Below are positions 45,021 through 49,586 of a stretch of 64,000 nucleotides of DNA, one piece after another. Location: assembly GCA_030264375.1 (NCBI GenBank), contig JASCQW010000132.1:70025120-70089119 (forward strand), given 5' to 3'. Below the pieces are notes generated by a model that saw nothing but the letters and a program-made list of their open reading frames with translations, was not told where the DNA came from and made no database searches. Made by a program: the position numbers and the translations under genes. This DNA is from Carcharhinus longimanus (taxonomy: Eukaryota). Positions within the stretch are counted from its first letter, which is position 1. Every line of letters starts with the position of its first letter.

Positions 45021-47357
45021 TGTCATACTATTGGATTCTTAAAATTTGTGTATTGAAACATACAAGTTTATTGTTAATATTTAACGATTTATAAATCCCA
45101 GTTAATGTCATGCATTGAGCTACTTCTTCATGCAGGATGCTTTCACAGTGATCTATTCAGGATCTAATACTATATATCAAACCATGGGTTGTGCTATCCT
45201 CCAGTTCCACATTAACATTTGTTCTACCATGCACCTTTACATTACAATGGCATGTAGGCACATGATGAAACATCCCCTTTTCTTCTCAATAGAAACCCTC
45301 CCGCCCTTACATTATCAATTCAGGCAGTCTTCAATCTTGACAGCTCTTGATAGCTCTTCCACATTTTGGTCTATTACACTTGGAGGAATGGTAGTGGTAC
45401 TCTTTGTTATGGTACTTGGTCATCTCCACTTAATTCAATTTTTGTGCTCCAAGAACTGCGCATCTCTTTATTAACAACTCACCTGCTCTGTTTGGACACT
45501 GGATTCGTGCTCTTCCTTTCCATGGTGCCCATCATGTTTTTACTGGACGTTTGGCAAATAGAACCTTCATTTCCATTTTTTTCACAATCTCAGCCAAATA
45601 TTTGTTAACTGTTTGATTTTTCAATAACTCAATAGTTCTCAGTATTCGATCTAAGACATCTAGTTCTTTTTCTTCTTCTAGTTGCTTACTTTTTCAAGTC
45701 CTTAATTTTGGTTTCACTGTTGGCCAGATCTGTCTCCACTTATGCCTTACCTTGTTTCAGTTCCCTAATCATACTACTTATGGCTTCATTGTGTGCTTGC
45801 AGTTTGGAAAGTTCTATGGCTTTTCCTTTCAATGCCTCCTTTTCTTCATTCAGTTTCTTCGTCTGTGCCTTGTAGTTTTCGGCTTCCTCCTGGAATATTC
45901 CAGAGGAATGCACTTTGACATGACGGATTCTTGCAGTGTGCAAAGGTCTTGCTGTAGGTTTTCCTTTTCTTTGCAAAGCTTGTTTGCTTTATCTTGCATT
46001 TTTCAACAAAGTTTTCTCGAGTTTCTTCTGCTATGCTTCTATTCTGCTGTGAAAGACATCCTTCCTGTCTTCATGTTGCTGATTGGTTATGCATTCATTT
46101 TGTATTTGATCTTGAAGAACACTCAACTGTTCTTTCAACCATTTATTTCTTTGTTGAGCTCTTGGTGACTCACTCTGGATTTCAGTGCATTGTCTCATTG
46201 ATTCAGCTTCAATCTTGTGGTTCAAATCTTCAGGTTCTGCTCTGATGTGAATATTTTTCTGTATAACAGCTTCATTTACTTTTTCCATGTTTTGTTTCTT
46301 TTGTTTGTAGCTTTCCTTCATTCACAGCCATCTGCACACTCTGTACTGACACCTACTGTTGCAAATTGGGTACTGTGTTAGCATTTTCAAGAAACCTTAC
46401 TGAGCCTTTCTGCTGCTTCTCAGCCATTTCTTTCTTCTGTATTAAACTCTTTGGCTTATGCATTTCATTGCACAGACATAATCAATAATGCTCTTGTGGT
46501 GTCCTCACTCTGGGGTCTTCTGTCTCACTTTGGTGTTTTCTGGCTCCCTTGCTCTTGGGTCCTTTGTTGCTTTTTCTCTGCAGTCTCTTGTTGGCTTTCC
46601 TCTGCAGTCTTTTGATGCCATTGGTACTTTATTGGAATTTGTCCTCACTCTGGGGTTTCTTCTAATTTTTTGTAACTTATTTAAGTTCAATGCAGCAGGC
46701 CCACCATTGTTGTAATCCACTGTGCCCTTGGGACCACCACCTATTCGATGACAAGCACTGCTTCTTAATTGTAATTATTGCTCACTGTCTCATGAACCGA
46801 CCAGGTTCTTTGACTCTGCATCACTCAGGGTCTTACAATGAACTTCTACTCACTCTGGTGGTCTCCTGAGTGTCTAGGTCTGTAGTGAAGCTTCTTCAAT
46901 TGTTTCTTCAATTTTTCTTTTTGGACGCTCATCTCTTTGGTTTGACTTCAGTTGTTTATAATCTTGTATATCTTGGGATACTGCTGTGGGTTCTTCATTT
47001 AAAATGCTGCCTTTCATATCATTGCTGTTCACCATGTTGTGTTTTGATGTTGGAGCAACTGTTGTCAATCATGTCATAATAAGATATCTTTTGATGTCTT
47101 AATGATGGGATCTGGAGACTTATCTGTTTAAACATGAACTGTTGTTGTTAATCTTCAAATATGTACAGATCCAAGACATTATCATGCATGGAGCTACTTC
47201 TCTAGGCAGGGTGCTTTCAGAGTGTTCTCTCTCAGAGGCTATTACAATGTGAATCTATACATTATACCATGGGCAATGCTGTTGCCCAGTCCCACATATA
47301 CAGTTGCTCTGCTGAGTAGCTTTAAATTACAATGGCTTGCAGACACATAAGACAACA
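45021..47357 (-). mobile_element. Non-autonomous LTR element with decayed coiled-coil internal ORF
   Basis: Diverged direct repeats ~45021-45272 and ~47072-47357, both starting TGTT on minus; PPT gagaagaaaagggga before the 3' LTR; AATAAA in the LTR; K/E/Q-rich ORF fragments on minus. Confidence 0.7.
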
Positions 47358-47595: not shown

Positions 47596-47870
47596 CATGC
47601 AATCCCTACAGTACAGAAGTGGCCATTTGACCCATTGAGCTTGTATCGACAACAATCCCACCCAGGCTCTATTCCCATAACCCCACATAATAATCCTGCT
47701 AATCCCCCTGACACTAAGTGATAATTTAGCATGGCCAATCAACCTAATCTGCACATCATTGGAGTGTGGGAGGAAACTGGAGCACCTGAAGGAAACCCAT
47801 GCAGATACGGGGTGAATGTTCAAAGTCCACACAGACAGTCACCTGAGGCTGGAATTGAATCTGTGTCTCT
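47596..47870 (-). mobile_element. HE1-type V-SINE (5' truncated)
   Basis: aatttagcatggccaatcaacctaatctgcacatc...ggaggaaactggagcac...cacacagacagtcacc. Confidence 0.88.
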
Positions 47871-47894
47871 CTTCATATGACAGATCCGCAATCT

Positions 47895-49586
47895 GAGGAA
47901 TCAGTCTGATAAACCTTCGCTATTTTCCTCTATAGCAAGGACATCCTTCCTCAGAGAAGGATACCAAAACTGCCACAATATTTCAAATGTGGTGACCCCA
48001 ACGCTCTCCCTATACAGTTGCAGCAAAACATCCGTATACCCATATGCAAATCCTCTTGCTATGAAGGCCAACATACCATTTGCCTTCTTTACTGATTGCT
48101 GAACCTGCAAGCTAACTTTCAGTGACTGATGCACGAGGACTCCCAGGTCTCATTGAGTATCCATTTCTCTCAATTTACACCCACTTGAATAATAATCTGC
48201 CTTCCTATTATTGCTACCAAAGTGGGCAACCTCACATTTATCCACATTACATTGCATCTGCCATGCAGATGCCCAGACACCCAGCCTGTCCAATGCACAC
48301 TGAAGCATCTCTTCGTCCTCCTAACAGCTCGCCCTCCTACCCAACTTTGCATCATCTGCAAATTTGGAGATTATACATTCAGTTCCCTCTTCCAAATTAT
48401 TAATATATAATGTGAACAGTTGGGGTCCTAGCATAGATCCATGCAGAGCCCTGCTAGTCATTGACTGCTAATCAGCAAAAGACCCATTTATGCCACTTCT
48501 TTGCTTCCTATCTTCTAACCAGCTTTCTTTCCATCTCAAGACATTACTTGCAATCCCATGTGCTCTAACTTTTCATAGTAGTCTGCTATGTGAAAGCCTT
48601 CTGAAAGACTAAATAAACCATATCCACTGGTTCTCCTCAGTCAACTCTACTAGTTACATCCTCAAAGAATTCCAATAGATTTGTCAAGCAGGATTTCCCT
48701 TTTGTAAATTCATGCTGACTTTGTCTGATTATACAATTGCCTTCCAAATGCTGAGTTATGAAATCCTTGATAATAGACACTAGCAATTCCCTAATACCGA
48801 CGTTAAGCTCACTACTCTATATTTCCCTGTTTTCTCTCCACCTCCCTTTTTGAACAGCGGGATTACATCAGCTACCCTCCAATCTTAAGGAACTAGTTCA
48901 GAGTCAAAAGAATTTTGGAAAATAACCAACAACGGATCCACTATTTCTAGGGCCACTTCCTTAAGTACTCTGGGATGAAGATTATCAGGATTTGTATATT
49001 TATCCACCTTCAATCCCATCAATTACTCCAAAGCCATTTCTCTACTAATGCTGATTTCCTTCAACTCCTCACTAAAACATGTTTCTCTTAGCACCTCTGG
49101 TGCATTATTCATGTCTCCCTTTGTGATGACTGAAGCACAGTACAAATTTAATTATTCAACCATTTTGTTTATTCTCTGTTATGGATTCTACCGTTTCTGA
49201 CTTAAAGGGGCCTACATTTGTTTTTGTCAATCTTCTTCTGTTTACGTATCTATAGTAGCTTTTGTAGTCAGTTTTTATATTCCCCACTAGCTTTCTTTCA
49301 TACTATATTTCCCTTCTTAATCAATCCCTTGATCCTCCTTTGCTGAATTTTAAACTGCTCCTGATCCTCAGGCCTATTGCTTTTTCTTGTCAATTTGTAT
49401 GCTTCTTCTTTCAATCTGATACTATCTCTAATTTCCCTTTTAAGCCATTTGTCCATAATTTCTTTACACATCTTGCGCCAAACAGGAATAAGTAACTTCT
49501 GGAGTTCGCCTATTCATTCTTTAAATGCCTGCCATTGCCTGTCCACTGTCTTTCCTTTCAGTAATGTTTCCCAGTCCATCATGGCC
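47895..49586 (-). mobile_element. CR1-type LINE ORF2 fragment (linker + RT), degenerate
   Basis: Minus strand DWETLLKGKTVDRQWQAFKE, HPRVLKEVALEIVDPL, SKFADD, KKANGMLAFIARG. Confidence 0.88.

What the first reader, a model, noticed from the sequence alone, without database searches (positions are those of the whole stretch)
45021..47357. LTR-bounded element carrying a coiled-coil cargo instead of gag-pol
Seen: two diverged ~260-285 bp direct repeats (tcatgcattgagctacttct.../tcatgcatggagctacttct...; attacaatggcatgtaggcaca/attacaatggcttgcagacaca). On minus there are TG starts, a PPT, AATAAA and a weak PBS-like tgattgacaacagt (possibly decayed tRNA-Leu TGGTGGCAGCGGT). The ~1.8 kb interior gives successive minus-strand K/E/Q-rich fragments (NKWLKEQLSVLQDQIQNE; EEAENYKAQTKKLNEEKEALKGKAIELSKLQAHNEAISSMIRELKQ) and an in-frame 24-bp repeat (DCRGKPTR/DCREKATK), ending in a CGRAIK motif like a Gypsy pol terminus. 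I see no zinc knuckle, protease, RT or integrase core. Inference: a non-autonomous Gypsy-related family with an atypical or captured coiled-coil gene; the best candidate here for something undescribed.
Basis: partly seen in the sequence, partly recalled or inferred. Interest (0 to 1): 0.7.

Follow-up and report, generated by a model that had tools for sequence, protein, structure and literature searches.

The report
Shark retrotransposon carrying three host genes
This is a dead copy of an old shark jumping-gene family that carries, instead of its own enzymes, coiled-coil pieces of three host genes (UACA, TPR and a third that is likely ninein), mostly joined in one reading frame and spread to hundreds of places, likely captured from messenger RNA during copying.

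Summary
Window 45021-47357 is a minus-strand element with two LTRs (71% alike), a PPT and a decayed PBS. It belongs to a dead family with several hundred candidate sites in this 2.68-Gb shark genome. The interior is not gag. It is a chimera of three pieces of the big UACA coiled-coil exon, a piece of another large host exon (ninein-like, name recalled) and spliced TPR mRNA: long-form copies join several TPR exons with the introns gone. Eight non-splice junctions are in frame and two are unresolved; microhomology alone gives 42-71% in-frame per junction, so this only suggests selection for an open frame. Amino-acid selection is not shown, and no intact copy was found. The insertion is shared with other taxa at 93-98%, and a family piece is annotated in Scyliorhinus torazame. 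Gypsy origin is likely; no autonomous partner was found. The mechanism is known (LTR-mediated retroposition, Tan 2016; maize Bs1). I found no paper on this family; Repbase and Dfam could not be checked. Earlier notes of this scan report similar captures (CLIP1, SH3KBP1/RABEP1, mych) on other shark and ray DNA.

The parts
47072..47357 (-). 5' LTR (286 bp)
   Evidence: 40 of 40 scored genome matches among 309 candidates
47020..47071 (-). Decayed primer-binding site at 47058-47071 and a second copy of LTR end plus PBS at about 47020-47034; tRNA-Leu assignment is recalled, not tested
   Evidence: the same boundary motif occurs 16 times against 0 in the control
46620..47019 (-). 5' interior, origin unassigned (possibly decayed gag or leader); stops recur across copies in every frame, read by eye
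   Evidence: no match to sampled ERV or Gypsy loci
46564..46619 (-). 24-bp tandem repeat, variable in number among copies
46324..46480 (-). Region B, coding-like stretch before the UACA pieces, origin unassigned
   Evidence: not above shuffles against the UACA exon; best E 0.02 against held host stretches; no intact source among 150 scored
46203..46323 (-). UACA piece 1 (from the large coiled-coil exon)
   Evidence: start set from other copies
45854..46192 (-). UACA piece 2, short-form junction (426 bp of host skipped); private 85-bp deletion inside
45755..45853 (-). UACA piece 3 (450 bp of host skipped before it)
45688..45754 (-). Linker X, origin unassigned, net in frame
45612..45687 (-). 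Piece of a second large host coiled-coil exon (L391, 590-aa open frame; ninein-like by recall)
   Evidence: score 61.5 against shuffle maximum 38.5; 60 loci match this exon
45546..45618 (-). Piece of a TPR exon (last of eight TPR exons seen in the family and its sisters)
   Evidence: score 78 against shuffle maximum 37.5
45288..45545 (-). 3' tail ending in a motif like a Gypsy pol C-terminus (about 45337-45366; likeness recalled)
   Evidence: 29-43-nt pre-PPT match to an integrase-bearing family
45273..45287 (-). Polypurine tract abutting the 3' LTR
45021..45272 (-). 3' LTR (252 bp)

Best explanation
This is a decayed copy of a non-autonomous LTR retrotransposon family, likely Gypsy-derived, whose interior is a chimera of three host coiled-coil genes (UACA, spliced TPR and likely ninein), likely gathered by repeated template switching onto co-packaged mRNAs and then copied hundreds of times in trans. 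Shown: the structure, the host sources, intron loss in TPR, shared deletions, a star-like burst and near-neutral decay after insertion. Inferred: capture in steps (TPR likely first, since sister elements hold TPR with the same two deletions but other neighbours), and mobilisation by an autonomous Gypsy partner that was not found. The cargo most likely rode as a passenger. Its frame likely stayed open through a mix of in-phase microhomology and a filter for RNAs that are translated far toward the 3' end, not because the protein kept a host function.
For: UACA: a natural copy ORF hits only two shark UACA proteins among 312 candidates (E 2.5e-34, 56%) and one intact 973-aa frame among 150 scored sites in the genome; 87 distinct copies map to one exon. 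TPR: Pfam PF25481 finds the host exon (E 1.4e-23) and 112 further matches among 150 scored. L387 and L389 join two exons across a 710-bp intron; L380, which also carries UACA, matches five exons in order and sister L382 eight; the T3|T4 splice is in frame in 8 of 9 copies. Third gene: 60 loci match the L391 exon. 23 of 137 distinct loci show all three genes. Junctions sit at short shared words (by eye). Private changes: pN/pS 1.01 below 10% frequency, 0.74-0.77 below 20%. Star tree with terminal branches of 0.19; LTR-pair K2P 0.20-0.37 in 8 of 8 pairs. 23 of 157 UACA residues invariant in three sharks are replaced in most copies.
Against: No autonomous partner among 50 rve loci, 64 further loci and 45 loci of a PBS-sharing family. 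UACA and the ninein-like piece each come from a single exon, so RNA capture is shown only for TPR. Shared changes against the host are synonymous-rich (UACA 59 synonymous to 79 other, TPR 27 to 22, ninein-like 11 to 24). That fits host-branch change plus a neutral element, but also purifying selection on the element; I could not polarise them. Eight in-frame junctions are more than a pure passenger predicts (p about 0.004-0.06). The long-form ninein|TPR junction (3 of 6 in frame) and B|UACA (14 of 31) are unresolved.
Confidence: 0.7

Rival explanations
1. The chimeric coiled-coil protein was useful to the element (for example as a scaffold, or a decoy at the nuclear basket or centrosome) and was kept by selection while the family spread.
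For: All three identified cargoes are long coiled coils in sense orientation; 8 of 10 tested non-splice junctions are in frame and 2 unresolved; the TPR frame runs on to the terminal motif in 8 of 15 copies; at most one stop among shared changes per gene; shared pN/pS 0.18-0.57.
Against: Large and different deletions were tolerated (short form lacks most of TPR and the ninein-like piece, yet is common); 23 of 157 invariant UACA residues replaced; the 1-2 sites that separate long from short forms are nonsynonymous; many copies share a stop before the terminal motif (by eye); low shared pN/pS is expected from the host branch alone.
Confidence: 0.2
2. The host pieces entered at the DNA level (repair or gene conversion into an element) or as L1-type processed pseudogenes that landed between LTRs.
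For: UACA and ninein-like pieces lie within single exons, so DNA capture cannot be excluded for them.
Against: TPR is spliced; pieces are internal, sense, and joined at short shared words; no poly(A) tail seen at the cargo's 3' junction in the translations read.
Confidence: 0.07
3. Two independent solo LTRs flank an unrelated pseudogene, or the interior is a divergent gag.
For: The LTRs are only 71% alike and this copy has no clear target-site duplication.
Against: The same order LTR-PBS-interior-PPT-LTR recurs in about ten fetched copies; 24 of 30 hits to the 3' interior have UACA upstream; the interior maps to host exons.
Confidence: 0.02

Closest known systems
LTR-mediated retrocopies of animals (Tan et al. 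2016, PMC5131818; abstract, Discussion and 12 passages read)
   Same: Partial mRNA pieces inside LTR-element sequence, short shared words at switch points, several parental genes, secondary copying as non-autonomous elements, frame often kept.
   Different: Those are young, in fly, mosquito, zebrafish, chicken and mammals; the word 'shark' does not occur in the main text. Here the chimera founded a family of hundreds of old copies with nested deletion forms, and every identified cargo is a coiled coil.
Maize Bs1 (as described in the Discussion of PMC5131818; primary papers not read)
   Same: LTR element carrying partial exons of three parental genes; copies share switch points.
   Different: Bs1 has 1-5 copies, one piece out of frame, and is described as giving a hybrid protein; this family is high-copy, vertebrate and dead in every copy scored.
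Gypsy elements with a tRNA-Leu-type PBS in this genome (L171, L178, L179, L181 and the L178 family)
   Same: Same LTR-PBS boundary motif, similar pre-PPT stretch and terminal motif; the L178 family has Integrase_H2C2 and rve pieces.
   Different: Different LTRs; no match over the 5' interior; not the direct partner.
Transducing (acutely transforming) retroviruses (recalled, no call)
   Same: Replication genes replaced by spliced host coding sequence, helper-dependent.
   Different: No env, no likeness to the ERV loci sampled, germ-line copies, no sign of a retained host activity.

Membership tests
LTR retrotransposon (non-autonomous) | Two direct LTRs with TG...CA ends | tested here: met
LTR retrotransposon (non-autonomous) | PPT abutting the 3' LTR and PBS after the 5' LTR | tested here: met
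   the tRNA itself was not found in 394 loci, its identity is recalled
LTR retrotransposon (non-autonomous) | Target-site duplication | tested here: inconclusive
   none at this copy; 5-bp matches of 4/5 to 5/5 by eye in L092, L102, L106, not in L110, L115
LTR retrotransposon (non-autonomous) | Dispersed copies with the same interior, no enzymes | tested here: met
Ty3/Gypsy | RT phylogeny and PR-RT-RH-IN order | not testable with these tools
   the family has no pol core and no partner was found
Ty3/Gypsy | PBS, pre-PPT stretch and pol terminus shared with Gypsy-type elements | tested here: inconclusive
   motif shared; 29-43-nt matches at E 2e-4 to 2e-5; profile comparison gave nothing, though that profile later proved to be mostly host-derived
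LTR-mediated retrocopy (Tan 2016) | Host coding sequence inside LTR-element sequence | tested here: met
LTR-mediated retrocopy (Tan 2016) | Introns lost | tested here: met
   TPR exons joined; not testable for the two single-exon sources
LTR-mediated retrocopy (Tan 2016) | Microsimilarity at switch points | tested here: inconclusive
   shared words of about 5-10 nt by eye at most deletion junctions; element-to-host junctions cannot be read without the partner
LTR-mediated retrocopy (Tan 2016) | Co-transcription from the LTR | not tested
   no RNA run was available to lay
Functional retrogene | An intact copy under purifying selection | tested here: not met
   no long intact family frame among 150 scored sites in each; private changes near neutral; unscored candidates remain

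The most novel reading that the evidence does not exclude
Shark non-autonomous Gypsy elements were selected to keep one long open coiled-coil frame, built by serial in-frame capture of nuclear-basket and centrosome or cytoskeleton mRNAs (TPR, ninein-like, UACA). The frame, or its protein, helped the RNA survive, be packaged or reach the nucleus. This would make coiled-coil capture a repeated replication strategy of cartilaginous-fish retroelements rather than an accident.
Probability: 0.25. Interest if true: 0.75.

Novelty: new variant of a known kind. Interest (0 to 1): 0.5.

Why it matters
It is a clear vertebrate germ-line record of serial gene capture by an LTR element, with the steps readable from long, short and sister forms. 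It makes one question testable: whether helper-dependent LTR elements are filtered for an open reading frame whatever it encodes. It also has a practical cost: hundreds of UACA, TPR and ninein-like fragments mimic genes in shark annotation (one is already a predicted Scyliorhinus torazame protein, GCB71637.1). There is no sign of a living function.

Tried and rejected
Pfam on window fragments: only weak coiled-coil hits. My guess that the 3' coding stretch was a Gypsy integrase tail was wrong: the profile comparison gave probability 0.05% and the stretch proved to be TPR. A ROCK-like origin (Rho_Binding, E 0.03) was dropped for the same reason. Region B as UACA: rejected. Search for the autonomous partner via rve (ERV-type loci), Integrase_H2C2 and the L178 family: none. 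Homologue search with alignment A2: none of 7998 candidates; with A3 only a shark RXR model carrying a Gypsy-like piece. Selection test on subfamily-diagnostic sites: no power, 1-2 sites. Atlas: no usable hit for P0003. PDB: no hit for the copy ORF or the L391 frame; Pfam none for L391, so 'ninein' stays a recalled label. Sequencing runs: no RNA holder listed. The host's own dN/dS in the UACA exon was not obtained. Paper searches listed nothing on this family (listings and abstract starts only). No supplements were opened; those of PMC5131818 list retrocopies by species and could bear on novelty only if they covered sharks.

Full report
Observation. They are 71% identical over 252 columns, K2P 0.37, far above 200 shuffles. 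On the minus strand they begin TG and end CA, a purine tract abuts the 3' LTR and a decayed PBS follows the 5' LTR. Six window fragments gave no retroelement domain in Pfam. No target-site duplication can be read at this copy; three other two-LTR copies show 5-bp matches by eye and two do not.

A family, not a one-off. The genome has 2.68 Gb. The interior gave 661 candidates (40 scored, 91 matches at 63-85%), the LTR 309 (40 scored, 40 matches) and a protein piece 758 (150 scored, 150 matches). These are lower bounds, not copy numbers. Forty fetched 8-kb loci repeat the same order of parts, about ten with both LTRs. Of 30 hits to the 3' interior, 24 have the cargo upstream. Contigs of four coded runs from other organisms hold this same insertion, three of them across a flank, at about 97-98% (two), near identity (one, patchy) and about 93% (one), so it is old, fixed and no assembly artefact.

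Cargo 1, UACA. A natural 156-aa frame of one copy hits two shark UACA proteins and nothing else among 312 candidates, and one intact 973-aa frame in the genome, the large coiled-coil exon of host UACA. Eighty-seven distinct copies, from 138 loci with a match, carry three pieces of this exon. Shared skips are 102 bp (long form), 426 bp (short form, as in the window) and 450 bp; 77 of 262 private small indels are multiples of three.

Cargo 2 and 3. After earlier notes of this scan reported two-gene chimeras in rays, I looked for more sources. Longer copies carry about 750 bp more coil. Pfam Nucleoprot-TPR found the host TPR exon and 112 further matches among 150 scored. Copies join TPR exons that are 0.7-4.8 kb apart in the host: two in L387 and L389, five in L380, eight in the sister L382. 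This shows capture from spliced mRNA. A 109-aa copy frame led to a 590-aa open host exon, L391, matched by 60 loci; I read it as ninein from memory, and no call confirms the name. The window keeps about 75 bp of each. Of 137 distinct loci, 23 show all three genes, 27 UACA and TPR, 19 UACA and the third, 52 UACA alone within the flanks held (host loci and 159 loci fetched for other LTR families were left out). Region B, linker X and the 5' interior remain unassigned.

Frame. With 30-nt anchors, modal spacings are multiples of three at eight non-splice junctions: UACA 1|2 long (10 of 13 copies in frame), 1|2 short (16 of 18), 2|3 (31 of 37), UACA|X|third gene (26 of 41), two deletions in TPR (9 of 9; 22 of 32), third gene|TPR short form (17 of 18) and its direct variant (3 copies at that spacing; 14 of 19 for the span). 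The long-form third gene|TPR junction (3 of 6) and B|UACA (14 of 31) are unresolved. A coarser count on BLAST ends was noisier: 29 of 55 for UACA 2|3, 8 of 17 from UACA 3 to TPR. The TPR frame continues to the Gypsy-like terminal motif in 8 of 15 copies, with a stop shared by many copies before it (by eye). Shared words of 3-8 nt among these coiled-coil sequences are in phase 42-71% of the time, so eight of eight has p of about 0.004 at 0.5 and 0.06 at 0.7. That is suggestive only.

Selection and age. Rare differences from the host are near neutral: pN/pS 1.01 below 10% frequency and 0.74-0.77 below 20%. Shared differences are synonymous-rich (0.18-0.57), but they mix host and element branches. 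A neutral element with a conserved host fits: 23 of 157 residues invariant in three sharks are replaced in most copies. The copy tree is a star with terminal branches of 0.19, and long and short forms differ at 1-2 sites (70 of 87 copies with enough cover), so the spread was a short burst. At 34 sites where the host alone differs from Heterodontus and Pristiophorus, copies carry the host residue at 11, the outgroup residue at 19, neither at 4. UACA was thus likely captured after this lineage left Heterodontus, about a third of the way along the branch. A Scyliorhinus torazame predicted protein is a family piece.

Superfamily. The LTR-PBS boundary motif occurs 16 times against 0 in the control, and by eye precedes gag-like or integrase pieces at several of them. 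One such family has Integrase_H2C2 and rve pieces and shares 29-43 nt before the PPT. No sampled ERV or Gypsy locus shares the LTR or interior. Gypsy origin is likely, not shown.

How it likely worked. An element RNA and host mRNAs were co-packaged; reverse transcriptase switched templates at short shared words; successive rounds added TPR, the third gene and UACA and cut them down. LTRs, PBS and PPT were kept, so a helper could copy the chimera. Template switching and secondary copying follow the model of Tan et al. 2016 (PMC5131818; abstract, Discussion and 12 passages read), which also describes maize Bs1 with three parental genes and 1-5 copies. The order of capture and the helper are inferred. 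I give 0.7 to a passenger cargo with at most a filter for an open frame, 0.2 to a selected protein.

Novelty. The mechanism is known. Eight paper searches (listings only) showed nothing on this family or on such captures in sharks; Repbase and Dfam were not available. Unchecked notes of this scan describe like captures of CLIP1, SH3KBP1, RABEP1 and mych in other sharks and rays; none matched this sequence. What is distinctive is a three-gene, all-coiled-coil, largely in-frame chimera that founded a family of hundreds of copies. Verdict: new variant of a known kind, interest 0.5.

Noticed in passing
L382, L384, L385, L386, L390: Sister elements carry spliced TPR without UACA or the ninein-like piece, with other coiled-coil-like stretches beside it; L382 matches eight TPR exons and reads through the same two internal deletions. 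No family LTR was seen within the 1.5-kb flanks.
   Followed up: partly
L178:1150-3019 and L286-L315: A second old family with the same PBS motif: short two-LTR element keeping only integrase pieces; 148 matches among 150 scored of 377 candidates.
   Followed up: partly
P0003 (GCB71637.1): A Scyliorhinus torazame 'hypothetical protein' is a piece of this family.
   Followed up: yes
P0008: A Scyliorhinus canicula RXR-gamma-like model begins with about 85 residues that match the L178 family's integrase tail; likely an exonised or mis-annotated element.
   Followed up: no
L217, L222, L235: Endogenous retrovirus loci with long open pol and env frames in this genome.
   Followed up: no
L240, L245 (small contigs C2195, C433): Gypsy elements with long open frames, one with an env-like frame, on small unplaced contigs; they may be foreign to the shark.
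   Followed up: no
window 47020-47071; L033, L045, L046, L048, L049: The LTR end plus PBS is often duplicated in tandem, also after apparent solo LTRs.
   Followed up: no
window 47640-48500: A very high-copy SINE-like stretch followed by a LINE reverse-transcriptase fragment right of the element.
   Followed up: no
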